DNA of 64,000 nt from Eubacteriales bacterium (GTDB lineage: Bacteria; Bacillota; Clostridia; Lachnospirales; JAITVM01), in contig JAVBOA010000008.1 in the NCBI GenBank assembly GCA_031551135.1, positions 10,563 to 74,562 of the forward strand, read 5' to 3'. This document shows positions 1,417 to 55,312 of the stretch, in pieces. The number at the start of each line of letters is the position of its first letter. The first letter of the stretch is position 1. The notes under the pieces were generated by a model. The model was not told the DNA's origin. It ran no database searches and saw nothing but the letters and a program-made list of their open reading frames with translations. The position numbers and the translations under genes are program-made.

Positions 1417-1532
1417 TATACTATTTTCATTATTAAGGATAGAAAAAAATATTTCATTTCACGCTTGAAGCATGCGTGAAACGCTCCGCTGTGAAAAATT
1501 TTTTTCTGCTTATCAAAATGAAAATAGTATTA
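1417..1532 (+). repeat. Palindromic intergenic repeat, full-length copy 1 (forward orientation)
   Basis: 116 nt: TATACTATTTTCATTATTAAGGATAGAAAAAAATATTTCATTTCACGCTTGAAGCATGCGTGAAACGCTCCGCTGTGAAAAATTTTTTTCTGCTTATCAAAATGAAAATAGTATTA. Near-identical to the copies at 26310 and 42018. Confidence 0.95.
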
Positions 1533-1534
1533 AA

Positions 1535-1543
1535 TGCTATAAT
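1535..1543 (+). promoter_or_regulatory. Candidate extended -10 promoter element (TGCTATAAT) abutting the right end of repeat copy 1
   Basis: Exact TGnTATAAT match about 134 nt upstream of the 1677 start codon. No good -35 hexamer was seen. Confidence 0.3.
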
Positions 1544-1676
1544 GTTTAATTCGAGATTTTTACAAATGCTGTAAATAATTAAACCCGTTATCGACTTGAA
1601 AATTATTTTGCGATTGACACAAATATCGTAAATCGGTCATTTGTTCCAACATGAATTGTTAGGAGGAGAAATCTTG

Positions 1677-2222
1677 ATGATTGGCAAAAAAAAGCTTGCA
1701 ACTTATGCTATGACAGGAGTTTTTATTGCTGCTACCGTAACCACCGTGATAGCTTCAAATGTAGCACCCGGCTCCGAATCCGACCCACTTGTAACAAAAT
1801 CTTACGTTGATACAAAGTTTGAAGAATTAAAGTCTTTAATAAGCAGCTCGAACTCTGGCGCGCCGCTTTCTGAAACTTCTGCAATACTGAGTGATGAAGA
1901 CAGGCAAAAAATCATAACAGAAGTTTTGGCAAAAATTGAAACTGCTCAGGCTGCCGAGAGCCATTTCGTGCCGGTAAAAGTAAACAAAGGCAAAGTTTTG
2001 ATGGGCAGAGAGGGAACTGAAATCATTCTTCGAACCGGACGAGCTTTTGTTTATTCTAAAACAGAAAACGGAGTTTCTGACTTGACTGCCGGAAAAGACT
2101 TGCCAAATGGAGAAAGTGTTACTAAAAACCACTATATGGTTGTTCCGAGAGATGATAATCGAGGAGTTATCCCGATTTCAGACTGTTGGTTCATGGTAAA
2201 AGGAGATTATGAAATCAAATAG
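1677..2222 (+). CDS. Hypothetical membrane-anchored protein (one N-terminal TM helix)
   Basis: AGGAGG at 1661-1666 precedes ATG 1677, giving MIGKKKLATYAMTGVFIAATVTTVIASNV. I do not recognise a domain. It lies immediately upstream of the large surface protein gene. Confidence 0.6.
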   Translation: MIGKKKLATYAMTGVFIAATVTTVIASNVAPGSESDPLVTKSYVDTKFEELKSLISSSNSGAPLSETSAILSDEDRQKIITEVLAKIETAQAAESHFVPVKVNKGKVLMGREGTEIILRTGRAFVYSKTENGVSDLTAGKDLPNGESVTKNHYMVVPRDDNRGVIPISDCWFMVKGDYEIK

Positions 2223-2293
2223 TGATTGCTTTGCTGAAAATCAGAGTTATTTTCAGAAAGGATAAAGCTTGTATTTAAAAAAGTGAGGTAAAA

Positions 2294-7227: not shown

Positions 7228-7644
7228 TTTTATTCTCCCAAATATGTATTTTTATCCATTTTGCAAAATTTTACACAGAACATAATCAATACTAAAAATC
7301 TCTTGTTTAATAATACTAATTTTACACAAAAAAAAATTAGTTGTATATCCTAAATTTTTTTTAGTATCTATAATTTTTTTTTGACTTTCGTCAAATTTTT
7401 ATGTATGATAGATATTAGGTCTAATTCCAGAAGTTAATATTGGAATGTTTGGTTTTTTTAGTTTATTATCGCCAAAATTAAAAATCATAGCGGTTTAATT
7501 TTTCGCCAAACTATGTTTAATTTTATCGTATACTAACGAATGAAAACAAGCTTCATATCCGTTTCTATCTGCCTAGCCGCACGGTATGGATGTTAAATTC
7601 TTGTCATTCGCCGGTATATAAACTAAAAAATCGAATCCCCTTTT

Positions 7645-7758
7645 GATACTATTTCCGTTCGAAAGAATAAAAAAAAATATTTCATTTTGCGCTGAAGCAA
7701 TGTGCGTAACGCTCAGCTATGGAATGTTTTTTTCTATACCAAAATGCAAATAGTATAA
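7645..7758 (+). repeat. Palindromic intergenic repeat, diverged full-length copy 2 (forward)
   Basis: GATACTATTTCCGTTCGAAAGAATAAAAAAAAATATTTCATTTTGCGCTGAAGCAATGTGCGTAACGCTCAGCTATGGAATGTTTTTTTCTATACCAAAATGCAAATAGTATAA. Same architecture as the consensus, with many substitutions. Confidence 0.8.
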
Positions 7759-7871
7759 GTTTAGGTTTTAGTAAATCTCTACATATTTCTGAAAACAGCC
7801 CTGCTGTTTTTAAAAATATAAGTATTTTTAATTTCTATAAGCCCATAATAAAACAAAAAGGTGGTGATATC

Positions 7872-8198
7872 TTGGCAAAAGAAGCTCTTCAAAAAATAAA
7901 GGAGGCAGAGGAAAAATCTTCTTTAGCTATCTCAAACGCGAAAAAACAAGCAGAAGAAATTCTGCTAAAAGCAAAAGAGGAAGAGGAAAAAATTTTGAAT
8001 ACAGCTAAAAAAGAAAGCCAATTCTTAAAAGACGGAATTATTAAAAAAGAAATCTTGGACGCTAAACAGGCGTACGAGCCGACTCTTTTAGGTGGCGAAG
8101 CAAAAATTGCCGCTCTGGAGAATTTGGAAGATGCAAAAATAAAATCAGCTGTAAATCTTATTGTAGAAAGGATTGTGAATATCAGTGGCAATAGTTAA
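7872..8198 (+). CDS. ntpF: V-type ATPase small peripheral-stalk subunit (E. hirae NtpF / subunit G-H-like)
   Basis: TTG at 7872 is preceded by AAAAGGTGGTGA. The product is a lysine/glutamate-rich coiled-coil protein, LAKEALQKIKEAEEKSS..., and is the first gene of the ntp operon. The longer track ORF from 7719 starts inside repeat copy 2. Confidence 0.7.
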   Translation: MAKEALQKIKEAEEKSSLAISNAKKQAEEILLKAKEEEEKILNTAKKESQFLKDGIIKKEILDAKQAYEPTLLGGEAKIAALENLEDAKIKSAVNLIVERIVNISGNS

Positions 8199-16463: not shown

Positions 16464-16505
16464 AAATCCCCTATATTTGTTTAGAATATAAGGGATTTTT
16501 GTTTT
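16464..16505 (+). terminator. Intrinsic terminator of the ntp operon
   Basis: AAATCCCCTATAT ... ATATAAGGGATTT forms a 13-bp stem with one mismatch, followed by a T-rich tract, 15 nt after the ntpD stop. Confidence 0.75.
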
Positions 16506-16620
16506 ATACTATTTTCATTATAAAGGATAGAAAAAAATATTTCATTTCGCGCTAGAAGCCTGCGCGAAACGCTCCGCTGTGAAAAATTTTTTTCTACTTA
16601 TCAAAATGAAAATAGTATTA
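16505..16620 (+). repeat. Palindromic intergenic repeat, full-length copy 3 (forward)
   Basis: 116 nt. It carries the CGCGC/GCGCG inner-stem variant (TTTCGCGCTAGAAGCCTGCGCGAAA). It lies between the convergent ntpD and SLH-protein genes. Confidence 0.95.
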
Positions 16621-19016: not shown

Positions 19017-19366
19017 ATTTCTTTCCCTCCATATAACGGCAATTTATAAAACTGCGAGCCTTTCATATGAAGATACCTATTTTCGAGTAAATACTCATTT
19101 CTAATTTCTATAAATTGCACTGAAACTTATACCGCTATTTCTGAAATAATTAATCTCCCTCCTTTAAAAATAAAAAAACATAACAAACGAATATAATTCA
19201 TGATTTTTAAAAATACTTTTTAGACAGGTTTACAAAAATTATATAAGCGTAGTTTATAGCTTACATGAAAATTTTTGTGATTCCATTAAAATTTACTCGA
19301 GTTGCGATATATAATATTATTATATTTAGTACAACTATTGATAATAAAAGTAAAATTTAATTGTCT

Positions 19367-19406
19367 TATACTATTTCCATTATAATAGAAAACAGAAATA
19401 GTATTA
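19367..19406 (+). repeat. Mini (internally deleted) derivative of the palindromic repeat
   Basis: TATACTATTTCCATTATAATAGAAAACAGAAATAGTATTA keeps both termini (TACTATTTC / GAAATAGTA pair) but lacks the ~75-nt core. Confidence 0.65.
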
Positions 19407-19612
19407 ATCATGAAATAATATTCCAATTATTATGTATAGATATATTATATTTAAATGTAAATGAAATGTACACCAATATATGATATATGAAATAATATTG
19501 AAATATAGCGGTTTGGTTTTTCTATTTACAAATAATTTTGTTTTCGAATTATATAAAATCAAGAAAAATCGGATTAAATTATATCAATGTTTTGTTACTA
19601 TTATTTCCATTC

Positions 19613-19660
19613 AAAAAAATAGAAGCGGAATTGCATTTGCCGTGCTGCACAACCCCGCTT
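19613..19660 (-). terminator. Candidate terminator downstream of the DUF402 gene
   Basis: On the minus strand: AAGCGG - 26 nt - CCGCTT followed by CTATTTTTTT. Short stem with a large loop. Confidence 0.4.
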
Positions 19661-19697
19661 AAAAATTCCAAAATATATTTTATTTTCAGTGCCGGAT

Positions 19698-23678: not shown

Positions 23679-23690
23679 TTCTTTTTATAA

Positions 23691-23755: not shown

Positions 23756-23768
23756 CTCGCTTATACTA

Positions 23769-26150: not shown

Positions 26151-26309
26151 AAAATACTCTCCTAATTAAAGATTCCGCAATCCCAATGAGATTGCTTTTA
26201 TGTAAATTTAATATTGCACAGCAAGTTTTCTGCCGACCTCAAACTTGCCTTAACCAATTATATACAAGTAAAAGAGCATCGTCAAGTGATATCTTGCGGT
26301 TTGATTTTT

Positions 26310-26424
26310 TATACTATTTTCATTATTAAGGATAGAAAAAATATTTCATTTCACGCTTGAAGCATGCGTGAAACGCTCCGCTGTGAAAAATTTTTTTCTA
26401 CTTATCAAAATGAAAATAGTATTA
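26310..26424 (+). repeat. Palindromic intergenic repeat, full-length copy 4 (forward)
   Basis: 115 nt. It differs from copy 1 at only a few positions. It lies upstream of the CPBP gene. Confidence 0.95.
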
Positions 26425-26538: not shown

Positions 26539-27219
26539 ATGAAAAACAATGAAAAAAAATTAGAGGCTTCCATATTTAACATTTTAGTTTTGGTTATTAT
26601 TTATTTTTTATTTACAGGAATTTTTCCGTTATTTATAAATATAATTATTGCAAAATCTACAGAAATCGACCTATCGATATGGCTGAATGTAATTACGGTT
26701 TTTTCGACAAATGTAATTTTTTTGTACGCAATAAAACAATACTATAATTTTGAGTATTATTTTGGCGAAAATATAAATATCAAGACAATCTTTTTAGGAA
26801 TAATATTGGCAGTCGCATTATTTGGATTTTTTAATTATTTCTTAGTACCGTTCCTGAGTAAATATATAAATCCTAATGAATATATCAGCCAGCTTGAATC
26901 GATGAAAATATTTCCGCTCCAGAATATTGTATTAACTTGTTTAATTGCGCCATTATCCGAAGAATTATTTTTGAGGGCATATATCGTTAGAGGCTTATAT
27001 AATAAATACAATCCTTTTATTGCGATTCTCGTTTCCTCAATTTTGTTTGCAGTAATTCATTTCAATATGATTCAAGGAATTTTGGCTTTTATTTTTGGCA
27101 TTGCCGTCGGCTGTTTATATTTGGCAACAGGTTCGATTTTTTCTTGCATCATTACGCATTTTTTATATAATTTATTCCTTTATATAGCTTATAGTAACTT
27201 TGTACTAATTTCATTTTGA
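26539..27219 (+). CDS. CPBP family intramembrane glutamic endopeptidase (CAAX protease / Abi-like)
   Basis: 226 aa and polytopic. It has the EELFLRAY motif and the FAVIHF motif. Confidence 0.88.
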   Translation: MKNNEKKLEASIFNILVLVIIYFLFTGIFPLFINIIIAKSTEIDLSIWLNVITVFSTNVIFLYAIKQYYNFEYYFGENINIKTIFLGIILAVALFGFFNYFLVPFLSKYINPNEYISQLESMKIFPLQNIVLTCLIAPLSEELFLRAYIVRGLYNKYNPFIAILVSSILFAVIHFNMIQGILAFIFGIAVGCLYLATGSIFSCIITHFLYNLFLYIAYSNFVLISF

Positions 27220-27335
27220 TAATACTAATTCCCATTTGATTTGTAGAAAAAAATTTTCACAGCGAAGCGTTCCGCGCAACGCTTCAAGCGCGGAATGAAA
27301 TATTTTTTTCTATTCTTTAAAAGGGAAATAGTATA
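27220..27335 (-). repeat. Palindromic intergenic repeat, diverged full-length copy 5 (reverse orientation)
   Basis: TAATACTAATTCCCATTTGATTTGTAGAAAAAAATTTTCACAGCGAAGCGTTCCGCGCAACGCTTCAAGCGCGGAATGAAATATTTTTTTCTATTCTTTAAAAGGGAAATAGTATA. It starts directly after the CPBP stop codon. Confidence 0.85.
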
Positions 27336-27376
27336 AGTAGAAAATAAATTTTCAGAATTTACTCAGCAAAAAAATT

Positions 27377-31412: not shown

Positions 31413-31530
31413 TAACACTATTTTCATTTTGATAAGAAGAAAAAAATTTTTCACAGCGGAGCGTTTCGCGCAATGTTTCTAGCGCGAAATGAAATATTTT
31501 TTTCTATACCTTTATATTGAAAATAGTATA
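31413..31530 (-). repeat. Palindromic intergenic repeat, full-length copy 6 (reverse orientation)
   Basis: 118 nt. TAACACTATTTTCATTTTGATAAGAAGAAAAAAATTTTTCACAGCGGAGCGTTTCGCGCAATGTTTCTAGCGCGAAATGAAATATTTTTTTCTATACCTTTATATTGAAAATAGTATA. Confidence 0.93.
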
Positions 31531-31667
31531 ATCTTGTTTTAAAATCGGCGAATATATTTTTCCTTAAGCATTTTTACGAAATGAAGCTCGGCAAAAAATG
31601 AAATTGGATATAAACATAAATCTTTGGATTTCGTATATTTGTCTATAATCAAAAAGGAGGTAAAAAT

Positions 31668-33686: not shown

Positions 33687-33838
33687 TTCTATTCCTCCAA
33701 ACAATTATGCAACTAATAATTATAACCAAAATTAAATCAAGCTTTTGTATAAATAGTTTGCATTTTCTATACTAATATATACGCTAAATAATTCAAAAGT
33801 TTATTGTTTTTTATTTTTCGGAATATTAATTATACTAT

Positions 33839-34255: not shown

Positions 34256-34275
34256 ATGTTTTCCTCTTTTCGTAT

Positions 34276-34704: not shown

Positions 34705-35620
34705 TTATTTCAACCCCTAACATTTTTAATATTAACGCCATTCTGATGAATTTTCCGTATCTTACCTGATCAAAATATTTCGCGCGCGGATCCGCGTCAA
34801 CTTCTTTGGAAATCTCGTTCACTCGCGGCAGCGGATGCATGATTACTAAATCTTCTTTAGAATTCGTAAGTTTATTTTTATCGAGGATATACAAATCCTT
34901 CAAGCGCACATAATCCTCCTCATTAAAAAATCTTTCCTTTTGCACTCGAGTCATATATAAAATATCGAGCATAGGCATAGATTCTTCTAGGTTTGTCGTT
35001 TGGACATATTCAATTTTATTAGGTTTTATATATTGATCGATTAGATAAGATGGAATTTTAAGTTCTTCCGGTGATATAAATATAAATTTGTTATTTGGAT
35101 ATGATGAAAGGGATTTTACTAAAGAATGAACCGTACGGCCGAACATTAAATCTCCGCATAAACCGATTGTTAAATTTTCCAATTTTCCTTTTGATGAAAC
35201 AATAGTTAAAATATCGGTAAGAGTCTGGGTTGGATGAGAATGACCGCCGTCTCCGGCATTGATAACAGGAATTTTAGAATATTGAGAAGCAACTAATGCA
35301 GAGCCTTCTTTTGGATGTCTGATAACAGCTATGTCCGCATATTCGGAAACAGTGCGTATTGTATCGGCAATACTTTCGCCCTTAACAGCCGAGCTGGAGT
35401 CCGCTGTCGAAAAACCAATAACAGAGCCGCCCAAGCTAAACATGGCCGATTCGAAACTTAGTCTTGTACGCGTACTTGCCTCATAAAACAAAGTAGCTAA
35501 AATTTTCCCCCTGCAAAGTGAAGAATATTTTTCGGGTTTTTTAATAATATCTTCCGCAATCTCCACAAGCTCGTTAATCTGTTGAAAATTCAACTCAGAT
35601 GAATCCAATAAGTGTTTCAT
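34697..35620 (-). CDS. pyrB: Aspartate carbamoyltransferase catalytic subunit (canonical active-site motifs)
   Basis: [21 protein letters not shown] and HPLPRV are all intact. The ATG at 35620 follows GGAGGA. The longer track ORF adds an implausible N-terminus. Confidence 0.93.
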
Positions 35621-35664
35621 AACATTCCTCCAATAATAATAGAACAAACATTCGGTTTTTGGAC

Positions 35665-35697
35665 AAAAAAAAATACGGACTTTGCGTTTTGGCAAAG
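35665..35697 (-). promoter_or_regulatory. Leader hairpin plus T9 tract upstream of pyrBI (possible UTP-sensitive attenuator or pause element)
   Basis: On the minus strand: CTTTGCCAAAACGCAAAG, then GTCCGTA, then TTTTTTTTT, 45 nt before the pyrB start. The T-run is separated from the stem by 7 nt. Confidence 0.3.
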
Positions 35698-35900: not shown

Positions 35901-36608
35901 TTAAAGCCCGAAAATATCATCTATATCTTCGTCTTCAATTACACGTTTTGATTTTTGTTCCGAATTTTTCATCATATTTTTAAGTTTTTCATCGACAGAT
36001 TTTTTGATTAAATATTCAAAATCAATGCCTCTTAATTTAAAAAACAGAAGCGGGTCCTCATCGAATTTTGCTCCGATTGCAAATAAAACCGCCGAAACAT
36101 GTTTGCACATGCTCGCCCAGTCCGGACAGGAACAAGAAAAATCAATTTCGCTGCTGCTCGGAAAAAGTCCGTTTTTCATAGTAAATAATTCCTGCAGCTC
36201 TATGGGAAATTTACCGGAAATTAATTCATCCAGATTGGATATTTTATTGCTGCAAGCCGAAACTACTCTGTTCCAATCCCGCTGACTCATTACTTCAATA
36301 TCTACTCTGACTTTATACGGAGTATTGCTACTTCCCATAACTAAAGCTTCCACAATTCCGGGATATATTTTCAAATCAATAACAAATCCGTTTTTTACAT
36401 AAGACCTTCCTCTGTCGATTCTGTTCGAATAATCGGCGTAATTTTCCAGATTTTTATTCCACGAAATTCCCCACCATTTTGTTGCAATTTTACTACCCTC
36501 GATAATTACAGGCGAAATATCGGGATTCTTTTTTCGTAGCTTTTCAATCTGTTTCTGTGCATTTAATTTTTTTTGACCGACCGGAATATATTCATAAAAA
36601 TCATACAT
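35901..36608 (-). CDS. SWIM zinc-finger protein (B. subtilis YwqB-like)
   Basis: 235 aa. The SWIM signature is CSCPDWASMCKHVSAVLFAIG. It starts 4 nt after the SNF2 gene stop. Confidence 0.8.
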   Translation of the reverse strand: MYDFYEYIPVGQKKLNAQKQIEKLRKKNPDISPVIIEGSKIATKWWGISWNKNLENYADYSNRIDRGRSYVKNGFVIDLKIYPGIVEALVMGSSNTPYKVRVDIEVMSQRDWNRVVSACSNKISNLDELISGKFPIELQELFTMKNGLFPSSSEIDFSCSCPDWASMCKHVSAVLFAIGAKFDEDPLLFFKLRGIDFEYLIKKSVDEKLKNMMKNSEQKSKRVIEDEDIDDIFGL

Positions 36609-36611
36609 ATT

Positions 36612-39233: not shown

Positions 39234-39248
39234 TCCTACTACTTTTTC

Positions 39249-39291
39249 ATACTATTTTATACTATTTCCAAGCTTAAAAAAAGAATAATTT
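39249..39291 (+). repeat. Possible degenerate left-end remnant of the palindromic repeat
   Basis: ATACTATTTT then ATACTATTTCCAAGCTTAAAAAAAGAATAATTTC resembles the left arm of the diverged copy 5 read in forward orientation (TATACTATTTCCC...AAAGAATAGAAAAAAATATTTC). Confidence 0.3.
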
Positions 39292-40752
39292 CTATAAATC
39301 TATAAATTTATTTGCGATTTTGTTGACAAAAACTTCGTCGTGCTCCACAAAAATCATTGTAGGCTCAGAAAATAAAATCATTTCTTCAATTTGGATTTTT
39401 GAAAAAACATCCACATAGTTCAGCGGTTCGTCCCAGATATATAAATTAGCTTCTTCGCAAATCGATTTTGCGACTAAAACTTTTTTGCGCTGACCTTCGG
39501 AATAATCTTCGATATTCATATCAAATAATTTTCTTTCGAAGTCCAATTTTCGTAAAATGGTTTTAAAATAAGTTTCATCCAAATTATTCACTTGTGCAAA
39601 ATTTTTTAAATCGCTGCTTAAATTTGAAGTAATTTGTGTGATATAAGAAATTTTAATCGACGGCGGTATTTTCAATTCTCCGGAAAAATCCATTTCATCT
39701 CCGGCGATAAGCTTAATCAAAGACGATTTTCCCGAGCCGTTTTTTCCGCGCACCGCAATTCGATCACCTTTAAATAAATCAAAAGAAAGATTATCAAAAA
39801 CTTTATTTTCGCCGTAAAAAATCGATATATTTTTTGCAGATATCAAATTTGTTTTATGATATTCAATATATTTTAGCGTTAAATCTTCATAAGAATCTAT
39901 ATTTTTCATCAAAGAAGATTTTTCTTCGATAGCTTTATTTTTGCGCTTTTCGATATTTTTCGAACGCTTCATCATTTTTGCCGCCTGATGCCCGACAAAG
40001 CCACGGTCATAAACTCCCTGCCCGATTTTGCTGCTTTCAATTTTATCCGACCACTGCGCCGTTCTTCGGGCTGATTGCTCAAGCTTTCTTACTTCTTTTT
40101 TTAGTTTTTTATTTTTTTCGATTTCATATTCGTCCTGCTGCTGTTTATTTTGATAATAAGTCGAGAAATTTCCTTTTTGCAATTCGATATTCGCACGGTT
40201 TATCGATAAAATATAATCCACGCAATTATCCAAAAAATCACGGTCATGCGAGACAACAATAAAACCCTGCTTTGATTTCAAATAATCGCATACAGTTTTT
40301 CGCCCCAGGATATCCAAATGATTCGTCGGCTCGTCTATCAACAAAAAATTATTCTGCTTTATAAACATTGCCGCAAGCATTGTCTTTGTTCTTTCGCCCA
40401 GACTCAAGGTTTCAAAAGGACGGTATAAAATTTCTTCATCTACCGATAAAAGCGAAAGCTCTTTTATAATTTCCCATTCCTGCAAGTTTGGATTTAGCTC
40501 AAAAAGTGCATCAATTGTATTTTTCGAAATATTCCGAATTTCAAACGGGAAATAATCGAAATTTATTGAGCAATCGATTTTTCCCTTGTATTCCAATTCT
40601 GAATTTAAAATCTTCAATAAAGTGGTTTTGCCGCGCCCGTTGCGCCCGACTAAGCCGAGTTTCCAATTAGAATCTATTTGCAGATTAACATTTTCAAAAA
40701 TATCGTTAAATCCGTAAGCAAACGATAGATTTTTTATTGATATCAATGACAT
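39292..40752 (-). CDS. Lsa-family ABC-F ribosomal protection protein (two ABC domains, no TM domain)
   Basis: 486 aa. It is collinear with Lsa(A) as I recall it: SNWKLGLVGRNGRGKTTLLKIL, LIDEPTNHLD, an interdomain basic linker, GKNGSGKSSL and IWDEPLNYVD. Confidence 0.85.
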   Translation of the reverse strand: MSLISIKNLSFAYGFNDIFENVNLQIDSNWKLGLVGRNGRGKTTLLKILNSELEYKGKIDCSINFDYFPFEIRNISKNTIDALFELNPNLQEWEIIKELSLLSVDEEILYRPFETLSLGERTKTMLAAMFIKQNNFLLIDEPTNHLDILGRKTVCDYLKSKQGFIVVSHDRDFLDNCVDYILSINRANIELQKGNFSTYYQNKQQQDEYEIEKNKKLKKEVRKLEQSARRTAQWSDKIESSKIGQGVYDRGFVGHQAAKMMKRSKNIEKRKNKAIEEKSSLMKNIDSYEDLTLKYIEYHKTNLISAKNISIFYGENKVFDNLSFDLFKGDRIAVRGKNGSGKSSLIKLIAGDEMDFSGELKIPPSIKISYITQITSNLSSDLKNFAQVNNLDETYFKTILRKLDFERKLFDMNIEDYSEGQRKKVLVAKSICEEANLYIWDEPLNYVDVFSKIQIEEMILFSEPTMIFVEHDEVFVNKIANKFIDL

Positions 40753-41924: not shown

Positions 41925-42017
41925 AATTAACTCCTTTTTGTTGAATTTAAAGCTTAACATCTTTGCAGTATAATTATACGATAAAATTAATCATTAATAA
42001 ATTATTTTTTTTTAAGT

Positions 42018-42133
42018 TAAACTATTTTCATTATTAAGGATAGAAAAAAATATTTCATTTCACGCTTGAAGCATACGTGAAACGCTCCTCTGTGAAAAAT
42101 TTTTTTCTACTTATCAAAATGAAAATAGTATTA
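42018..42133 (+). repeat. Palindromic intergenic repeat, full-length copy 7 (forward)
   Basis: 116 nt. Its last three bases (TTA, 42131-42133) are the complement of the TAA stop codon of the hemolysin III gene. Confidence 0.95.
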
Positions 42134-44123: not shown

Positions 44124-45404
44124 CTAAAATTCTTGTAAATACATAATTCTGCCGTTTACAATTGTGCCCAAAACTTTTCCTTTTAGCTTCATGCCGTCGT
44201 ACGGCGAAAACTTGGCTTTAGAAGCGAAATTTTCCGCTGTAATTTGATTTTCCGCATCGATATCAAAAATAAATAAATCGCCGGACATTCCGATTTCAAT
44301 ATTTCCTTTATTGCTTAGATTTAAAAATTTTGCCGGATTTAGAGTAAATTTTTCTATTAAATTTATTATACTCATTTTGCGCTCAATAACAAGGGCATTG
44401 TATGAGATAAGAAAAGCGGTTTCCAAAGAAGAAATTCCATAGGAAGCAGATTCAAATTCGCAAGTTTTTTGTTCGATTGTCGAAGGTGAATGACCGGAGG
44501 ATATAATATCGATTGTACCGTCAAAAATCCCTTCAATAATCGCTTCAACGTCGCTTTTTGTCCTAAGCGGCGGTTTTACTTTACAAAAAGTATTGTAATT
44601 TTCGAGCGAATCTTCGGTCAATGTAAAATAATGCGGGCAAGTATCGCAAGTCACTTTAATTCCGTCTTTTTTCGCCTGCCTGATTAATTCGACCGAACCT
44701 TTTGTGCTGATATTCGCTATATGAATTCTGGAGTTTGCGTATTTTGCTAAAATCAAATTTCTGGCAAGCGTAATTTCCTCTGATTCGCGCGGAATCCCCC
44801 GAAGCCCGGTTTGCGTTGAAATTATTCCTTTATTTATAACGCCGTCGCCCGATACGGATTTATCTTCACAAAAAGTTATCACAGGAATATCAAACATTGT
44901 TGCGTATTTCAAAACATTGCTGAGCAGAAGCGCGTCATAAAAAGCCTTGCCGCCGTCCGAAATCGCAACAATTCCGGCGCGCTTCATTTCGCCGATTTCC
45001 GCCATCTGATTGCCCAAAAGCCCTTTTGTCATGCCGCCGTATTGAAAAATATTTACATAAGATAATTCTTTCGCTTTATTTTCGATATATTTAACGACGG
45101 TTTTATCATCGATTACCGGCATTGTGTCCGGCGAAGCCGTGAGCGACGTAAATCCGCCTTTTATCGCAGATTTTGAGGCAGAGGCGATATCCTCTTTATT
45201 TTCGAAACCGGGATCGCAGATTTTACATGATGTATCGATAAGTCCCGGGAAAACATATTTTTCTTTAACATCGATATATTCAGGAATATTATAATTTAAA
45301 TTTTTTCCGATTTCGATAATTTCGCCGTAATCAATATAAATATCAACAATCTCTAAAACTCCATCTTTATTAAACACAGAAGCATTTTTAATTAAAGTTC
45401 TCAT
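44124..45404 (-). CDS. Dihydroorotase-like protein lacking all metal-binding and catalytic residues (PyrC'-type pseudoenzyme)
   Basis: 426 aa and collinear with type I DHOase, but DLHVHLREPG is replaced by DTSCKICDPG, HCED by FCED, HxCHxS by HIANIS, and TDHAPH by SGHSPS. Confidence 0.85.
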   Translation of the reverse strand: MRTLIKNASVFNKDGVLEIVDIYIDYGEIIEIGKNLNYNIPEYIDVKEKYVFPGLIDTSCKICDPGFENKEDIASASKSAIKGGFTSLTASPDTMPVIDDKTVVKYIENKAKELSYVNIFQYGGMTKGLLGNQMAEIGEMKRAGIVAISDGGKAFYDALLLSNVLKYATMFDIPVITFCEDKSVSGDGVINKGIISTQTGLRGIPRESEEITLARNLILAKYANSRIHIANISTKGSVELIRQAKKDGIKVTCDTCPHYFTLTEDSLENYNTFCKVKPPLRTKSDVEAIIEGIFDGTIDIISSGHSPSTIEQKTCEFESASYGISSLETAFLISYNALVIERKMSIINLIEKFTLNPAKFLNLSNKGNIEIGMSGDLFIFDIDAENQITAENFASKAKFSPYDGMKLKGKVLGTIVNGRIMYLQEF

Positions 45405-46338
45405 CTATCGGTTTACCTCTCATAGAAAGTAAATACAAAAGCGCCATTCTGACCGCCACGCCATTTGTAATCTGATCGTCTATCAAACAATTTTTCGAGT
45501 CAATGACTTGTGAAGAAATTTCTATTCCGCGGTTGATTGGGCCGGGATGCATTACGATTACATCTTTTTTTGCATAAGAGAGCATTTTCTGATCTATTTT
45601 AAATAGATTACGATATTCGTTTATCGAGGGCAAAAGCGAACCATATTGCCTTTCGGTCTGCATCCGCAAAGCAAGCACAACATCAGCGTCCTCCATGCCT
45701 TCGTAAGCATTATAAAAAACTTTCACACCGAAATCTTCAAGATAATCGGGAATTAAAGTCGGCGGCCCCACTACAGAAACTTTTGCGCCGAGCGTAGTAA
45801 GCGCCCAAATGTTACTGCGGCTGACTCTGCTATGCGCAACATCTCCGATAATTGTTACTTTCAAATTTTCAAAACTGCCTTTTTGCTCTTTTATTGTCAA
45901 AAGGTCGAGCATTGACTGTGTAGGGTTTTCGTTTATTCCGTCGCCTGCGTTTATCACGCTTGCTTCGACATTTTCAGCCAGAAGTTTTGCCGAGCCTGAC
46001 ATCGGGTGGCGTATTATAATAAAATTGCAGCCCATTTGGTCAATAATTCTGCCGAGATCCAGTAAATTTCCAAAATCTCCGTTGTTTACGCCGAGTTTCA
46101 TTTCAACAACATTCGCGCCCAAATATCCGGCGGCAAGCTCATAAGAAAGCCTGTTTCGGGATACGGTATCACTAAAAAGCGTCAAAACCGATTTTCCTTC
46201 TAAAATCAAAGCTCTTTTGTTTTTTTGCGAAATTACAAATTTCATTGTTTCGGCAACTTTTAAAATATATTGAATTTCTTCGCTCTCAACCCCTCTTAAA
46301 GTTACGAAATCTTTTCGCATAAATTTCAACGCGAACAC
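45388..46338 (-). CDS. Aspartate carbamoyltransferase-like protein (B. subtilis-type fold) with a degenerate carbamoyl-phosphate site
   Basis: Collinear with B. subtilis PyrB (GDVAHSRVSRSN, LRMQTER and HPGPINRG are conserved). However, STRTR is VSRNR, QHPTQ is ENPTQ, and the QKGE loop is GDFG. The start is ambiguous between 46338 and 46320. Confidence 0.8.
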   Translation of the reverse strand: MFALKFMRKDFVTLRGVESEEIQYILKVAETMKFVISQKNKRALILEGKSVLTLFSDTVSRNRLSYELAAGYLGANVVEMKLGVNNGDFGNLLDLGRIIDQMGCNFIIIRHPMSGSAKLLAENVEASVINAGDGINENPTQSMLDLLTIKEQKGSFENLKVTIIGDVAHSRVSRSNIWALTTLGAKVSVVGPPTLIPDYLEDFGVKVFYNAYEGMEDADVVLALRMQTERQYGSLLPSINEYRNLFKIDQKMLSYAKKDVIVMHPGPINRGIEISSQVIDSKNCLIDDQITNGVAVRMALLYLLSMRGKPIDENFN

Positions 46339-51511: not shown

Positions 51512-51546
51512 TTATACTATTTTCATTTTGATAAGTAGAAAAAAAT
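51512..51546 (-). repeat. Truncated copy (35 nt) of the palindromic repeat, reverse orientation
   Basis: TTATACTATTTTCATTTTGATAAGTAGAAAAAAAT matches the repeat terminus and stops at the A-run. It ends 1 nt from the telA stop codon. Confidence 0.8.
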
Positions 51547-51547
51547 A

Positions 51548-52813
51548 TTATGAGTTTTGCAATAAAGTTTGTTTTACTTGCTCTTCCAATTTTTTGATTT
51601 CAACTTCTGCAAGTGCTCTCTCTTCTTTGCCCTTTTTTTGGATGGCCACAACGCCGTTTATTGTTTCGATCAGATTATTATTTGTAATCTGCAAGGTTTC
51701 GAGGCTCACTATTCCTCTTTCGCCCTCTTCCGCAATTTCTAAAGCGCCTTGTTTTAATAATTCGCTGTTACGCTGCAAAAGCTCATTTGTAGTATCCGTA
51801 ATATGTTTTTGCAAACCAAGCGCCGCTCTGTTATTTGCTATTCCCAAAGATATAACCATTTGACTTTTCCAAACAGGAATTGCCGTAAAAATCGAATTTT
51901 GAATTTGATAAACCAATTGTTCGCTGCCTTGCTGAACCAATCTGATTTGCGGTGCGTTTTGAATACTCACCAATCTTGTACGCAAAAGGTCATCAATTTT
52001 CTTTTCAAATTTTACTTGGATATCATTCATTTCATTGTATTTCTGGATTTCCATTTGGTCGTTGGAAGAAGTAGCAGCTTCTTTTTGTTTGGCAACTTCC
52101 TGCGTATACGATTTTAATTTTTCCTTAGCGGCAATTAAAATATAAGTAAGTTCTTTATAATACTGAACGTTTGTATTATACATTCCGTCCATGATTTTAA
52201 CATTACCAATTAATTTATCCTTAGATTTTTCAAGCTTATCGACAATCGTATCAATTGTTTTTTCAACAGTATCAAATTTTGCAAGCATTTTTTCAGTTTC
52301 TTTTTTCGATAAAACAATTTGATTTTTAATTTGTTTGCCGATGTTTGAAGCTCCTTCGGAAGCTTTTTTTGCGCCCGAATTTAATCCGCCGAAAAGATTC
52401 GATAAAAATCCCGGCTTGGAATCGTCTTTAAAATCAAAATTTTTGATTTCCGAGGTAAGGTCAACCAACGAATTAGCAACATCGGCATCCAATTCATTTA
52501 CTTTTATGCTTCTCAAAATTTGGTCGCAAAACTCGGCTATTTTCTGCTGAGTATTAACGCCGTAAGTTATTACGCCGTCTGTAGAAGATAAATCGATTTT
52601 TGAAACAATGTTTTCCACCAATTGGCGTTCTTGCGGGGTCAAAATTTCCAATGACAAACTATCCTTAGTTTTTTCCTGAACTTCCGTGCTTTGCGACTGT
52701 GCAGGCGGCTCTACGACTTTAGATTCTCCGTATGGGTCAATATCCATCAGAGGCGCGCCGTTATCCGGTAATCCCATTTCAAAATCTTTCATTATTCCGT
52801 TGTTTTCTTCCAT
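51548..52813 (-). CDS. telA: TelA / YaaN family toxic anion resistance protein
   Basis: 421 aa. All-helical TelA-type sequence, with about 50 aa of acidic N-terminal extension. Confidence 0.8.
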   Translation of the reverse strand: MEENNGIMKDFEMGLPDNGAPLMDIDPYGESKVVEPPAQSQSTEVQEKTKDSLSLEILTPQERQLVENIVSKIDLSSTDGVITYGVNTQQKIAEFCDQILRSIKVNELDADVANSLVDLTSEIKNFDFKDDSKPGFLSNLFGGLNSGAKKASEGASNIGKQIKNQIVLSKKETEKMLAKFDTVEKTIDTIVDKLEKSKDKLIGNVKIMDGMYNTNVQYYKELTYILIAAKEKLKSYTQEVAKQKEAATSSNDQMEIQKYNEMNDIQVKFEKKIDDLLRTRLVSIQNAPQIRLVQQGSEQLVYQIQNSIFTAIPVWKSQMVISLGIANNRAALGLQKHITDTTNELLQRNSELLKQGALEIAEEGERGIVSLETLQITNNNLIETINGVVAIQKKGKEERALAEVEIKKLEEQVKQTLLQNS

Positions 52814-52828
52814 AAATACAATCCCCTT

Positions 52829-53473
52829 TCAATTTTTACTTACATTATTATATGCGTCACAAAATTCAAAAAAGCAACAAATTTCGCACTTAGGTTTTCG
52901 GGCAATACAAATTTTTCTGCCATGTGCGATAACTTGTGTGTTATATTTAATCCAGCTTTTTTTGGGAAGTATCTTCATTAATTCAAATTCAATTTTTTCG
53001 GGGTCTTCGGATTTCACAAGCCCTAGTTTATTGGAAATACGTTTAACATGTGTATCCACAACTATGCTTGGAATATTAAAAATATGTCCGCGCACAACAT
53101 TTGCGGTTTTTCTGCCCACGCCGGCCAGAGATGTAAGGCTTTCAATATCCGAAGGCATTTTAGAATCAAAATCGCTTATCAATTTATTACAGCAATTGAT
53201 TATATTTTTAGCTTTATTGCGGTAAAATCCCGTCGATCTGATATCTTCCATTAAAGTAATGAAATCCGCATTCGCAAAATCCTCGATAGATTTATATTTT
53301 TTAAAAAGCGATTGTGTAACAATATTCACTCTGTCATCGGTGCATTGCGCGCTTAAAATCGTTGCAATCAAAAGCTGCCAATCTTTTTCATAATTCAAAT
53401 AGCATTTAGTATCTTGAGGATAATTTTCATCTAAAAGCGCAAGAGTTTTTTTTACTTTTTCTTTTTTTGTCAA
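52829..53473 (-). CDS. nth: Endonuclease III
   Basis: HhH motif LTSLAGVGRKTANVV, the catalytic-Lys region, and the 4Fe-4S cluster CIARKPKCEICCFFEFC. Confidence 0.93.
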   Translation of the reverse strand: MTKKEKVKKTLALLDENYPQDTKCYLNYEKDWQLLIATILSAQCTDDRVNIVTQSLFKKYKSIEDFANADFITLMEDIRSTGFYRNKAKNIINCCNKLISDFDSKMPSDIESLTSLAGVGRKTANVVRGHIFNIPSIVVDTHVKRISNKLGLVKSEDPEKIEFELMKILPKKSWIKYNTQVIAHGRKICIARKPKCEICCFFEFCDAYNNVSKN

Positions 53474-55176
53474 GCTTCAGCCTCCAATAGAAATTCTGTC
53501 ATTAAATTCGTAATATCAAAAGCCTCAACAGAATCAGCATATCTGAAAATAATATACGAAATTTGTTTTTTTCGGTCTCCCAAAATGTCATAATTAAATT
53601 TTTTTACATTATAGTTTTTTAAACGCTGTCTGTAATTTGCCGTTGTACCAAAACAAAAATGATTGCTTTCTTTCATAAATCTAAGGATAGCATTTTTTTC
53701 TGATTCGGAAATTGTATCCTCAAAAATATCCGGCAGAGTCTTTAGATTCTCGTTTAATAAAATATCGTATTTAATTAAATCAGACAGTAATTCTCGATTA
53801 AGATTTTTTACGGATTCCGCAAATTTAAATAAATATTTCGGAATAAAGAGTTTATTATGTTTCAGAAGATTTAATTTATTGCTTTCCCAAAAAATTCCCA
53901 AGCTATAAAAAAAGTCGAAAGGCGAGTCAAAAAAATCCAGCAAATAGTTTAAAGATTTTTCAAATCTATTTGTATTATAGAACAATTCGACAATATCTTC
54001 AATCGATTTTAAATCTAAAATTTCCTCAAAACTGAGCCACATAGTGGAAATCACTTCATATGGCGCATTTGCACGGTATTTAATCTCAAACTCTTTTGCC
54101 TTTTCTTTTATTCCCGTTTCTTTCAAGACTTTCAAAAATCCCAATTGAAACTGCTCCGGGCGCAAAGCAAAAACATCATTGAAAGATTTTTTAAAAGAAT
54201 CAAAATCCTCGAACGGCAGTCCCGCAATCAAATCCAAATGCTGGTGAATATTTCCGAAGGATTTAATAATCCGCACGTTTTCGAATAATTTATCCAGATT
54301 CGTTTTTCTTGTAATCGCATCCAAAGTCTTTATATTTGTAGATTGAACGCCGATTTCGAATTGAAAAAGTCCTTTGCGGGCTTTTTGCAGCAGTAATATT
54401 TGTTTTTTATTAATTAAATCAGCGGCTATTTCAAAATGAAAATTCGAAATCCCGTTGTCGTTTTCAATCAAAAATTCCCAAATCTTATAAGTCCGTTCGG
54501 GTTCGCAATTAAATGTGCGGTCAACAAATTTAACCTGCTTTATATTATTATCCAAAAAGATTTTCAAATCAGAAAAAACTCTATCCAACGAGAGATTTCG
54601 AACGCCCGAAACTAAAGAAGACATGCAATATTGGCATTTGAACGGACAGCCGCGGCTTGTCTCATAATAAATAATACGATTCTCCAATCCGGAAAAATCT
54701 TGATAAACAAAGTCTATTTCATCAAGCTGAATTGCGTCATTTGCATTATATTCCGAATTTTCTTTTGTTAAGATTCCTTTTATTTCAGATAGACTTGTTT
54801 TTTTATACAAAAAACAATCAACAATTTCCGAAAAAGGCTTTTCGCCTTCTCCCAAAACCACGATATCAATATTTTTATTTTCATTTAAGCCATATGCCTC
54901 CGGTCCACCCGCAATAATAAAAATATTCGGATCGGCTTTTTTCAGCGTATCGATAATTTGCAGATTATTTTCGATATTCCAAATATAAAAAGAAAAACCG
55001 ATAATCTTGATTTTTGTTCGGTATATCTCAGCAGTTATGCTGTCCAAATTATTATTTATTGTAAATTCTTTAATAATGATATCTGCGTTTTTATCTTTTA
55101 CAAATCCTTTGAGCGAATACAGACCAAGTGCGGAATGTATAAATTTTGCGTTTAGCGCGACAAGTAAAAATTTCAT
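53470..55176 (-). CDS. B12-binding-domain radical SAM protein with a DUF4080-like C-terminus
   Basis: 568 aa. The N-terminal B12-like domain is followed by ETSRGCPFKCQYC (CxxxCxxC). Confidence 0.85.
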   Translation of the reverse strand: MKFLLVALNAKFIHSALGLYSLKGFVKDKNADIIIKEFTINNNLDSITAEIYRTKIKIIGFSFYIWNIENNLQIIDTLKKADPNIFIIAGGPEAYGLNENKNIDIVVLGEGEKPFSEIVDCFLYKKTSLSEIKGILTKENSEYNANDAIQLDEIDFVYQDFSGLENRIIYYETSRGCPFKCQYCMSSLVSGVRNLSLDRVFSDLKIFLDNNIKQVKFVDRTFNCEPERTYKIWEFLIENDNGISNFHFEIAADLINKKQILLLQKARKGLFQFEIGVQSTNIKTLDAITRKTNLDKLFENVRIIKSFGNIHQHLDLIAGLPFEDFDSFKKSFNDVFALRPEQFQLGFLKVLKETGIKEKAKEFEIKYRANAPYEVISTMWLSFEEILDLKSIEDIVELFYNTNRFEKSLNYLLDFFDSPFDFFYSLGIFWESNKLNLLKHNKLFIPKYLFKFAESVKNLNRELLSDLIKYDILLNENLKTLPDIFEDTISESEKNAILRFMKESNHFCFGTTANYRQRLKNYNVKKFNYDILGDRKKQISYIIFRYADSVEAFDITNLMTEFLLEAEA

Positions 55177-55196
55177 GCTTTCCCTCGTTTATAATT

Positions 55197-55312
55197 TATA
55201 CTATTTTCATTATAAAGGATAGAAAAAAATATTTCATTTCGCGCTTGAAGCCTGCGCGAAACGCTCCGCTGTGAAAAATTTTTTTCTACTTATCAAAATG
55301 AAAATAGTATTA
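55197..55312 (+). repeat. Palindromic intergenic repeat, full-length copy 9 (forward)
   Basis: 116 nt with the CGCGC/GCGCG inner-stem variant, nearly identical to copy 3. Confidence 0.95.

What the first reader, a model, noticed from the sequence alone, without database searches (positions are those of the whole stretch)
1417..55312. Dispersed ~115-nt palindromic intergenic repeat family: 8 full-length plus about 5 truncated copies in 64 kb
One unit recurs throughout the window. Its consensus is TATACTATTTTCATTAT[T/A]AAGGATAGAAAAAAATATTTCATTTC[A/G]CGCTTGAAGC[A/C]TGCG[T/C]GAAACGCTCCGCTGTGAAAAATTTTTTTCTACTTATCAAAATGAAAATAGTATTA. Forward copies lie at 1417-1532, 7645-7758 (diverged), 16505-16620, 26310-26424, 42018-42133 and 55197-55312. 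Reverse copies lie at 27220-27335 (diverged) and 31413-31530. Every copy is intergenic, and they occur in all contexts: divergent, convergent and tandem gene pairs, both upstream and downstream of operons. The termini are a perfect 14-nt inverted repeat (ATACTATTTTCATT / AATGAAAATAGTAT). Inward from these lie pairing arms that contain A7/T7 runs, so the whole unit can fold into one long imperfect hairpin on either strand. The window contains no transposase, integrase or RAYT-like gene, and I see no target-site duplication or conserved flanking motif beyond AT-richness. I cannot place it in a named family: from memory it is not BOX, RUP, ERIC or a classical REP/BIME. Roughly one copy per 8 kb would mean hundreds per genome if this window is representative. 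That makes it a major unannotated genome feature, either a MITE or REP-like element or a structured-RNA family.
Basis: seen in the sequence. Interest (0 to 1): 0.8.

Follow-up and report, generated by a model that had tools for sequence, protein, structure and literature searches.

The report
New small hairpin transposon (MITE) family
The repeat is real: it is a family of about 111-base non-coding "jumping" DNA hairpins (a MITE) scattered between the genes of an uncultured Clostridia bacterium, which is an ordinary kind of element, although this family seems undescribed.

Summary
Eight full-length copies lie at the stated coordinates (nhmmer E 1e-27 to 1e-37), with four or five partial copies. 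All full copies fold as one long hairpin. No described family matched in Rfam, plasmids, phages, E. coli genomes, viral contigs, JGI metagenomes or paper texts.

- The ends are a perfect 13-bp inverted repeat (TACTATTTTCATT / AATGAAAATAGTA). It is flanked by TTA or TAA at 20 of 22 termini.
- Copy 27223-27333 sits inside an older partial copy. Removing it plus one TAA restores the family sequence across the junction (35/38). This shows insertion with a short duplication.

I read it as a non-autonomous terminal-inverted-repeat transposon (MITE). It would be moved in trans by a transposase that is not in this window, probably a DDE enzyme making 3-bp TWA or 2-bp TA duplications.

The family extends beyond the window. 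A protein on another NCBI contig starts with element-encoded residues. Independent Logan contigs also break inside two copies. Three related loci lack the element.

Side effects are inferred, not shown. They include an outward promoter-like site and element-derived gene ends.

Verdict: new member of a known kind, modest interest.

The parts
1416..1532 (+). Full-length copy c1417 (subfamily 1). Core 1419-1529, flanked by TTA on both sides. Lies between divergent genes.
   Evidence: nhmmer E 1.5e-35; termini and flanks; hairpin z -6.9
7644..7758 (+). Oldest full-length copy c7645 (76-80% identical to the others). Core 7647-7755, flanks TGA and TAA. Lies upstream of the V-type ATPase operon.
   Evidence: nhmmer E 1.4e-27; identity matrix; hairpin z -3.6
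16504..16620 (+). Full-length copy c16505 (subfamily 2). Core 16507-16617, TTA flanks. Inserted just after the T-run of the V-ATPase operon's own terminator hairpin, between convergent genes.
   Evidence: Logan contig L002 ends 22 nt inside it
26309..26424 (+). Full-length copy c26310 (subfamily 1, one A shorter). Core 26312-26421, TTA flanks. Lies between divergent genes (YajC-like and CAAX protease).
27220..27336 (-). Full-length copy c27220. Core 27223-27333, flanked by TAA on both sides (+ strand reading). It is nested inside an older partial copy.
   Evidence: Removing the core plus one TAA restores 35/38 identity to the family right-arm consensus across the junction; nhmmer E 4.6e-32
27203..27354 (-). 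Older solo right arm, split by c27220: 27203-27219 (TACTAATTTCATTTTGA) and 27337-27354 (GTAGAAAATAAATTTTCA). Its first part supplies the last 5 codons and the TGA stop of ORF 26539-27219.
   Evidence: Pfam Rce1-like domain ends at residue 213 of 226
31413..31531 (-). Full-length copy c31413. Core 31416-31528. It begins 2 nt after the TAA stop of the M42 peptidase gene.
42017..42133 (+). Full-length copy c42018 (subfamily 1). Core 42020-42130. Its right TTA flank (42131-42133) is the TAA stop codon of the HlyIII-family gene on the minus strand.
   Evidence: Logan contig L004 starts 32 nt inside it
55196..55312 (+). Full-length copy c55197 (subfamily 2). Core 55199-55309, TTA flanks. Its left end lies 21 nt from the ATG of the radical-SAM gene 53470-55176, and the upstream gene's own terminator lies just beyond its right end.
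55209..55237 (-). Outward-facing sigma-70-like site inside the element (ATGAAA-17-TATAAT, 10 of 12). The same site occurs at 16517-16545 and, more weakly (AATAAT), at 42030-42058.
   Evidence: consensus match only, and such matches are common in AT-rich DNA
19366..19406 (+). Mini copy with an internal deletion. Both termini and both TTA flanks are kept (core 19369-19403).
56275..56303 (-). Mini copy: a 23-nt core (56278-56300) that keeps both termini and the TAA flanks. Lies just downstream of tRNA-Pro.
51512..51549 (-). Solo right arm, about 35 nt from 51515. It lies next to a strong bidirectional terminator hairpin, and its inner end overlaps the stop codon of the TelA-family gene.
   Evidence: nhmmer E 1.3e-4

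Best explanation
[quoted passage not shown] Each unit is about 111 bp, non-coding and AT-rich, and is bounded by a perfect 13-bp terminal inverted repeat (TACTATTTTCATT / AATGAAAATAGTA).

**Proposed mechanism (inferred).**
- A transposase encoded elsewhere in the genome binds the two ends.
- It inserts the unit at a TWA (TTA/TAA) site in AT-rich intergenic DNA, often beside terminator T- or A-runs.
- The staggered cut is filled in, which leaves a 3-bp TWA duplication, or less likely a 2-bp TA duplication.
- By analogy, the enzyme is most likely a DDE transposase of the IS5/PIF-Harbinger type or the IS630 type.

**Decay.** Copies decay into solo arms and into internally deleted mini copies.

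**Effects on the host (inferred).** Because the whole unit is a near-perfect palindrome, it forms a long hairpin in any transcript that crosses it. It also carries an outward promoter-like site. Copies therefore probably alter expression of neighbouring genes and remodel gene ends as a side effect.

**What is shown.** The repeat family, its ends and flanks, one nested insertion with duplication, the hairpin, a copy outside the window, and the lack of any match in the searched collections or in three related loci.

**What is inferred.** The transposase, its class, and the promoter and RNA effects.
For: **Structure**
- Eight full copies have unrelated flanks.
- The TIR is a perfect 13 bp, and TTA or TAA precedes 20 of 22 termini.
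- No frame is open through the element.

**Mobility**
- c27220 interrupts an older copy at its internal TAA. TAA is now present on both sides, and excising the copy in silico restores 35/38 identity to the family consensus.
- Two young subfamilies at 95-99% identity sit alongside old copies at 76-86% identity, which suggests repeated bursts.
- Mini copies keep both termini and both flanks.

**Not an artefact, not confined to the window**
- Independent Logan contigs end 22 and 32 nt inside two copies.
- P0129, on an 89-kb NCBI contig, begins MRETLRCEKFFSTYQNENSI. That sequence is the element read in frame, and it is followed by a different flank.

**Agreement with the literature**
- The element fits the published MITE definition of 50-800 bp, TIRs of at least 10-15 bp and TSDs of 2-10 bp (PMC11602168).
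- Pneumococcal RUP, BOX and SPRITE likewise insert into one another (PMC3049150).
- Correia elements carry promoters (PMC10969869).

**Promoter at c55197**
- The upstream gene has its own terminator at 55347-55327.
- The next ATG is only 21 nt beyond the element.
- The element's ATGAAA-17-TATAAT site is the only promoter-like match in that gap.
Against: - No transposase with matching ends was found. None is in the window. None turned up through the six-frame peptide search, the plasmid and phage searches or the viral contig scans.
- No orthologous empty site from a close relative could be obtained. The only 'empty site' is the family consensus at the nested insertion.
- The flank is TTA in the element's own orientation in 9 cases and TAA in 2. 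A symmetric TIR element inserting at TWA should give about equal numbers (two-sided p about 0.07). The flank could therefore be partly element sequence or a strand-specific target.
- Four base pairs show compensatory changes. This could point to selection on structure rather than pure parasitism, although template-switch correction within DNA palindromes can produce the same pattern.
Confidence: 0.8

Rival explanations
1. A REPIN- or PATE-like element moved as single-stranded DNA by a tyrosine (Y1, IS200/IS605- or RAYT-type) transposase. It would insert next to a TTA target without a true duplication, and the second TTA would be the element's own cleavage site.
For: - The flank has the same orientation (TTA) in 9 of 11 cases, which fits a strand-specific target.
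- The whole unit forms a long hairpin with conserved bulges.
- Solo arms resemble REP singlets left by decayed doublets (PMC3337134).
- The nested insertion cannot tell a true duplication from insertion beside a TAA by an element that ends in TAA.
Against: - The ends are perfect inverted repeats that reach the flank. By my recollection, IS200/IS605 ends are non-identical subterminal hairpins.
- The arms alone are not palindromic, so they are not REPs (z about 0).
- There is no clear strand bias: 7 plus and 5 minus, counting partial copies.
- No Y1 transposase is in the window.
- The two TAA-flanked copies fit a TWA duplication better.
Confidence: 0.08
2. A host-selected structured regulatory module, such as an RNA hairpin, RNase III target, terminator or portable promoter. 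The structure would be kept by selection, and mobility would be ancient or incidental.
For: - 97% of cells stay paired and 4 pairs show changes on both sides, more than in the shuffles and the slid controls.
- Single-sided transitions give G-U seven times and A-C twice when read on the element's plus strand.
- An outward promoter-like site lies next to a gene start with no room for another promoter.
- The asymmetric 10-nt bulge CGCTCCGCTG is conserved in all copies.
Against: - Copies occur in every orientation relative to neighbouring genes, so no single RNA strand is consistently transcribed.
- Native terminators stand beside four copies, so the element is not needed for termination there. 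The simple terminator scan finds none inside the element.
- The -10-like hexamer is lost in the older copies.
- No Rfam family comes near its gathering score. The best hit is 27.7 bits against a threshold of 100, to generic long hairpins.
- With eight related sequences, covariation counts are weak evidence, and DNA palindromes can self-correct.
Confidence: 0.08
3. Assembly artefact, contamination or a chance similarity confined to this window.
For: The source looks like a draft or metagenome-assembled genome. Only one copy outside the window could be shown.
Against: - E-values are as low as 7e-37 and each copy has unique flanks.
- The same junctions appear in independent Logan assemblies of two sequencing runs.
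- A copy lies on another contig.
- Copies have diverged from one another to different degrees.
Confidence: 0.01

Closest known systems
RUP (Repeat Unit of Pneumococcus), a 107-bp MITE of Streptococcus pneumoniae thought to be mobilised by IS630-Spn1
   Same: - Firmicute host and nearly the same size.
- AT-rich, with terminal inverted repeats, a short target duplication and a highly base-paired structure.
- More than 100 dispersed, mostly intergenic copies.
- Copies found inserted into other repeats (PMC3049150).
   Different: - No sequence relationship was found, although this was tested only indirectly: no RUP sequence was on hand.
- The flank here reads as TWA (3 bp) rather than simply TA.
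- No partner IS has been identified.
- The host is an uncultured Clostridia lineage.
Correia elements (CREE/NEMIS) of Neisseria
   Same: - About 100-155 bp, with inverted-repeat ends and a short TA-containing duplication.
- High density between genes.
- Carry outward promoters and form hairpins in transcripts (PMC10969869).
   Different: - Unrelated host phylum and sequence.
- Promoter, IHF-site and RNase III functions are demonstrated for Correia. They are only inferred here, from one consensus match and one gene context.
Tourist-like MITEs / PIF-Harbinger and the bacterial IS5 family (ISL2, IS1031 and IS427 groups)
   Same: A 13-14-bp TIR with a 3-bp A/T-rich duplication. Canonical Harbinger elements make 3-bp TSDs and their relatives make 0-3 bp, and they group with the IS5 family (PMC12730594). 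That the Harbinger/Tourist TSD is TWA is my own recollection.
   Different: No IS5- or Harbinger-type transposase was found, so the link rests on the flank pattern alone. The TTA:TAA ratio is skewed at 9:2.
REPINs (inverted REP doublets mobilised by RAYT transposases)
   Same: A hairpin unit of about 100 nt, decayed single-arm remnants, many copies, and both old and young copies within one genome (PMC3116915, PMC3337134).
   Different: The arms are not themselves REP palindromes. There are true TIRs with a flanking duplication. No RAYT is in the window.

Membership tests
MITE (non-autonomous TIR transposon) | Small size (50-800 bp in prokaryotes) and no coding capacity | tested here: met
   Core of 109-113 bp. 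Stop codons occur in all six frames, and the longest open stretch is 38 codons or fewer. Size range from PMC11602168.
MITE (non-autonomous TIR transposon) | Terminal inverted repeats of at least 10-15 bp | tested here: met
   TACTATTTTCATT / AATGAAAATAGTA, 13 of 13 in four copies and 2 or fewer mismatches in the rest.
MITE (non-autonomous TIR transposon) | Target-site duplication of 2-10 bp | tested here: met
   TTA or TAA at 20 of 22 termini. The nested insertion has TAA on both sides and once in the uninterrupted family sequence. The length (3 bp TWA or 2 bp TA) is not resolved, and an IS200/IS605-style mimic is not strictly excluded.
MITE (non-autonomous TIR transposon) | Multiple dispersed copies with unrelated flanks | tested here: met
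   Eight full and at least four partial copies in 64 kb, plus one copy on another contig.
MITE (non-autonomous TIR transposon) | A cognate autonomous IS or transposase with matching TIRs in the same or a related genome | not testable with these tools
   None is in the window. The rest of the source genome could not be fetched. Searches of the collections that could be reached found none.
MITE (non-autonomous TIR transposon) | Empty versus filled orthologous sites (insertion polymorphism) | tested here: inconclusive
   The nearest relative, L014, has 95% amino-acid and 79% nucleotide identity in the V-ATPase genes. It lacks the element after the D-subunit gene, but synteny breaks there. No strain-level relatives exist in the protein collection.
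IS630/Tc1-mariner-derived MITE (RUP- or Correia-type) | TA dinucleotide duplication | tested here: inconclusive
   All flanks are compatible with TA if one TIR is 14 nt. That reading leaves the invariant T before the left TA unexplained, and also the two ...TAT|AA right flanks.
IS5 / PIF-Harbinger-type (Tourist-like) MITE | 3-bp TWA (TTA/TAA) duplication | tested here: inconclusive
   This is the most economical reading, with perfect symmetric 13-bp TIRs and TWA at 20 of 22 ends. However, the TTA:TAA ratio is 9:2 in element orientation, and no transposase is known.
REP / BIME / REPIN | Each unit or arm is itself a short imperfect palindrome (REP) | tested here: not met
   The left and right arms folded alone give -1.3 and -1.9 kcal/mol, with z of +0.2 and +0.3.
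REP / BIME / REPIN | Associated RAYT (Y1 transposase) gene flanked by the repeats | not testable with these tools
   None is in the window. The rest of the genome was not available.
IS200/IS605-derived PATE | No TIRs, different subterminal hairpins at each end, and strand-biased insertion | tested here: not met
   Perfect TIRs reach the flank. Orientation is 7 plus to 5 minus, counting partial copies.
Any Rfam RNA family | Score at or above the family's gathering threshold | tested here: not met
   Only two tRNAs pass in the window. On the element, the best hits are 27.7 and 27.5 bits against thresholds of 100 and 86, to generic miRNA-precursor hairpins.
Intrinsic (rho-independent) terminator | G+C-rich stem followed immediately by a T-run | tested here: not met
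   The scan finds no terminator-like site inside three copies. The T7 run is separated from the G+C stem by 7-17 nt. Separate native terminators stand beside four copies.
ERIC/IRU and other E. coli repeats; known plasmid or phage IS ends | Detectable sequence similarity | tested here: not met
   blastn with 11-nt words finds no match in 5,426 E. coli genomes, none in plasmids, and only chance 24-26-nt hits in phages.

The most novel reading that the evidence does not exclude
The family is not a plain parasite. It would be a long-lived, vertically inherited hairpin-element population held in check by a single-copy domesticated transposase, as in the REPIN-RAYT relationship. Its structure would be under selection, as suggested by the compensatory pairs, the conserved asymmetric bulge and the G-U bias. 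It would also routinely supply promoters and RNA-processing sites to housekeeping genes. That would be the first such system in Clostridia, and it would use TIR ends and a TWA target.
Probability: 0.1. Interest if true: 0.6.

Novelty: new member of a known kind. Interest (0 to 1): 0.3.

Why it matters
**Annotation.** The element breaks short-read assemblies: Logan contigs end inside copies. It also creates false gene starts and altered gene ends. Examples are the element-encoded N-terminus of P0129, the ORF call at 7719, and the tail and stop codon of the CAAX-protease gene. A profile for the family would improve annotation of this lineage.

**Biology.**
- The family gives a clean example of self-nested insertion that reveals the target duplication.
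- It provides a candidate portable promoter 21 nt upstream of a radical-SAM gene.
- Its 13-bp end sequence can be used to look for the responsible transposase.

None of this changes what is known about MITEs in general.

Tried and rejected
**Searches of public collections**
2. The same core against JGI metagenome contigs gave nine loci that match only the seed, not the element.
3. Four viral-contig scans (core, both arms, TIR plus flank) gave nothing. The last gave 120 chance 16-mer hits with no element and no inverted TIR partner within 4 kb.
4. blastn against plasmids, phages and E. coli genomes found nothing meaningful.
5. Rfam, at gathering thresholds and at E up to 10, gave only tRNAs and sub-threshold generic hairpins.
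6. A literature search for the terminal sequences found only unrelated primers and similar strings.

**Attempts to reach the source genome or relatives**

7. Fetching the source genome through exact proteins returned only short Logan contigs of the same region. The NCBI contigs of 162,540 and 89,222 bp were not retrievable.
8. Empty-site comparison with relatives failed. L014, L015 and L016 lack the element, but they are not syntenic or are too diverged.
9. A concatenated six-frame peptide query, meant to find mis-called ORFs over other copies or a parent IS, gave one further copy (P0129) and no transposase.

**Readings rejected**
- REP doublet: the arms are not palindromic.
- Intrinsic terminator.
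- Integron attC site or regulator operator: not considered further.

**Left unused on purpose**
- One homology search, the representative search and structure prediction, because no protein question remained open.

Full report
**1.
The window has about 34% G+C and looks like an ordinary chromosome segment of an uncultured member of the Clostridia. It carries a V-type ATPase operon, pyrimidine and aromatic amino-acid genes, ThiI, an Lsa-type ABC-F protein, sigma factors and CheC/CheD. The best named relatives of its V-ATPase B subunit are Clostridia MAGs.

A profile built from the eight claimed copies recovers all of them at the stated coordinates and strands, with E-values from 1e-27 to 7e-37. 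The 14-nt terminus occurs 23 times at 2 or fewer mismatches, against 3.6 expected. Copies are 76-99% identical. They fall into two young subfamilies (c1417/c26310/c42018 and c16505/c55197) plus three older copies (c31413, c27220, c7645).

Every full copy folds into one long imperfect hairpin on either strand, with z-scores from -3.6 to -7.9. The partial copies are:
- a solo arm at 51515-51549;
- two internally deleted mini copies that keep both termini, at 19369-19403 and 56278-56300;
- an interrupted older arm at 27203-27219 plus 27337-27354;
- weaker fragments at 19599-19642, 23690-23775 and 33833-33845.

**2.
I listed every occurrence of the 13-mer TACTATTTTCATT, at 2 or fewer mismatches, with the three bases outside it. 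The true inverted repeat is 13 bp and perfect: TACTATTTTCATT / AATGAAAATAGTA. Twenty of the 22 genuine termini are preceded by TTA or TAA. The two exceptions, TGA and TTG, belong to the oldest copies.

Read in the element's own orientation, the flank is TTA...TTA in nine copies. It is TAA in c7645 (right flank TAA, left flank TGA) and in the solo arm at 51515, which has only a right flank.

**3. There is direct evidence of insertion.**
Copy c27220 (core 27223-27333) is flanked by TAA on both sides. Just outside it lie two pieces of another copy. Deleting the core and one TAA in silico yields TACTAATTTCATTTTGA-TAA-GTAGAAAATAAATTTTCA. This matches the family's right-arm consensus at 35 of 38 positions, continuously across the junction. 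Uninterrupted copies carry a single TAA at exactly that place (TTTTGATAAGTAG).

So one copy inserted into another, and the target TAA (or its TA) is now present twice. This shows mobility. It also rules out the reading in which TTA is simply part of both ends with no duplication. It cannot exclude an IS200/IS605-like mimic, in which the element ends in TAA and inserts beside a TAA.

**4. The family is not an artefact and is not confined to the window.**
Exact-protein look-ups return independent Logan assemblies from two sequencing runs. Their contigs stop 22 nt inside c16505 and 32 nt inside c42018. That is what a de Bruijn assembler does at a multi-copy repeat.

I also ran a homology search with a concatenation of the element's open reading stretches. 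It found one protein, P0129, a MoxR-type AAA ATPase on an 89,222-bp NCBI contig. Its called N-terminus, MRETLRCEKFFSTYQNENSI, is the element read in frame, and it is followed by a flank different from any in the window. This is a ninth copy on another contig.

The wider copy number could not be measured, because the source genome itself could not be fetched.

**5. The family appears lineage-restricted and undescribed.**
The following searches found nothing:

| Collection or method | Result |
|---|---|
| Rfam | no family match |
| Plasmids | no match |
| Phages | only chance 24-26-nt hits |
| 5,426 E. coli genomes | no match |
| IMG/VR viral contigs | no element |
| JGI metagenome contigs | nine seed-only chance hits |
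| Full-text search for the terminal sequences | nothing relevant |

Three loci from relatives lack the element. One relative has 95% amino-acid and 79% nucleotide identity in the V-ATPase genes, and two MAGs have 87-88% amino-acid identity. However, none of the three is syntenic at the insertion points. The window's proteins are singletons at 90% identity in a 15-billion-protein collection, so no strain-level comparison was possible.

**6. Most likely mechanism.**
The anatomy meets the published definition of a prokaryotic MITE: 50-800 bp, TIRs of at least 10-15 bp, TSDs of 2-10 bp, no transposase (PMC11602168). The features here are a small size, no coding capacity, perfect TIRs, a short A/T duplication, dispersed copies with unrelated flanks, bursts of near-identical copies beside old ones, and a nested insertion. 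No transposase lies in the window, so mobilisation must be in trans.

The most economical reading of the flanks is a 3-bp TWA duplication with symmetric 13-bp TIRs. It explains the invariant T before the left end and both TAA-flanked copies. That pattern is typical of PIF/Harbinger-Tourist elements and of some bacterial IS5-family groups. PMC12730594 supports the 3-bp TSD and the IS5 relationship. The TWA detail is from my own knowledge.

A 2-bp TA duplication in a TTAA context, as for IS630, RUP and Correia, remains possible. The 9:2 excess of TTA over TAA (p about 0.07) is a mild anomaly for either reading. It is the main point in favour of the rival, a strand-specific Y1-transposase mechanism.

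Against that rival:
- the ends are true TIRs;
- the arms alone are not palindromes;
- there is no evident strand bias, with 7 plus and 5 minus.

**7. Structure conservation.**
On the eight-copy alignment, 97% of cells remain paired. Four pairs show changes on both sides. One separates the two subfamilies (A-T versus G-C in the central stem), and three lie in c27220. This exceeds the shuffles and the slid controls.

With eight related sequences this is weak evidence for selection. Template-switch correction within DNA palindromes would produce the same pattern. I therefore do not read it as proof of an RNA function.

**8. Likely consequences for the host (inferred).**
- **Promoter.** The element's minus strand carries ATGAAA-17-TATAAT, a 10 of 12 match, pointing out of the left end. 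Such matches are common in AT-rich DNA, and the older copies have lost the -10 hexamer. At c55197, however, the upstream gene has its own terminator hairpin and T-run at 55347-55327. The element fills nearly the whole gap, and the radical-SAM gene's ATG lies 21 nt beyond its left end. If that terminator is efficient, the gene's promoter must lie inside the element. Correia elements do this in Neisseria (PMC10969869).
- **Gene ends.** The right flank of c42018 is the TAA stop codon of the HlyIII-family gene. The older arm at 27203 supplies the last five codons and the stop of the CAAX-protease ORF. The solo arm at 51515 overlaps the TelA stop codon. Gene callers can also start ORFs inside copies, as with P0129 and the ORF at 7719.
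- **Position relative to terminators.** Native terminator hairpins stand within about 40 nt of four copies. The element is therefore not needed as a terminator at those sites, and it seems to favour the T/A-rich DNA beside terminators.

**9. Comparison and verdict.**
In behaviour it most resembles RUP of S. pneumoniae, which is a 107-bp, AT-rich, TIR-bearing, TSD-making, highly paired element with over 100 copies that inserts into other repeats (PMC3049150). It also resembles the Correia elements. By its flank pattern it may belong with IS5/Harbinger-type (Tourist-like) MITEs.

It is not a member of any named family I could test. The REP/REPIN anatomy, the PATE anatomy, the Rfam families and the intrinsic-terminator definition all fail a tested feature.

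It is a new member of a known kind. It is useful for annotation and as a handle for finding its transposase, but it is not surprising to a specialist. Interest 0.3; confidence in the MITE reading 0.8.

Noticed in passing
window 26296-26309, 56616-56629 (exact); 7490, 10696, 19508 (1 mismatch): A second short motif, GCGGTTTGATTTTT, recurs 12 times at 2 or fewer mismatches against 3.1 expected, mostly on the plus strand in intergenic DNA. At 56616 it forms the 5' arm of a terminator-like hairpin (AGCGGTTTGATTT...AAATCAACCGCT plus a T-run). The 26296 copy directly abuts MITE copy c26310. It may be a shared terminator arm or another small repeat family.
   Followed up: partly
window 23690-23775: A separate 17-bp inverted repeat (AAATATTTCATAATGCA - 23 nt - TGCATTATGAAATATTT) lies between convergent genes. 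It shares the AAAAAAATATTTCAT arm motif with the MITE and is followed by CTTATACTATTATAG. It hits the element profile only weakly, at E 0.05. It could be a very old rearranged copy or a related family.
   Followed up: partly
window 19017-19697: This unusually long (680 bp) AT-rich intergenic region holds a mini copy (19369-19403), a degenerate fragment (19599-19642) and a copy of the GCGGTTTGGTTTTT motif. It looks like a tolerated dumping ground for small repeats.
   Followed up: partly
window 27203-27354 and 51515-51549: The two solo right arms end at nearly the same internal position, just past the A7 run and about 35-38 nt from the terminus. This hints at a recurrent way of losing half the palindrome, such as hairpin cleavage and repair, rather than random truncation.
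   Followed up: no
P0129 (NCBI contig of 89,222 bp) and window ORF 7719-8198: Gene callers place start codons inside element copies. The first 20 residues of P0129 are element-encoded. The 159-aa ORF call before V-ATPase subunit I starts inside c7645, whereas the equivalent genes in the relatives L015 and L016 are 108 aa. These are likely annotation artefacts caused by the repeat.
   Followed up: partly
window 34697-35695 and 45388-46338: Two aspartate carbamoyltransferase catalytic-subunit paralogues lie 10 kb apart. One sits with small downstream ORFs (33839-34704), and the other sits in a pyrC-containing cluster.
   Followed up: no
window 35901-40752: An SNF2-family helicase with a DUF3670 N-terminal region (SCO1167-like, also hitting the ZorD and DrmD defence-helicase models) sits between an unannotated 235-aa ORF and an Lsa-type ABC-F ribosomal-protection gene. 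It may be a defence or resistance islet.
   Followed up: no
The source genome's contigs could not be fetched by exact proteins either. The source assembly seems to be withheld from the retrievable collections, so absence of hits there says nothing about copy number.
   Followed up: no
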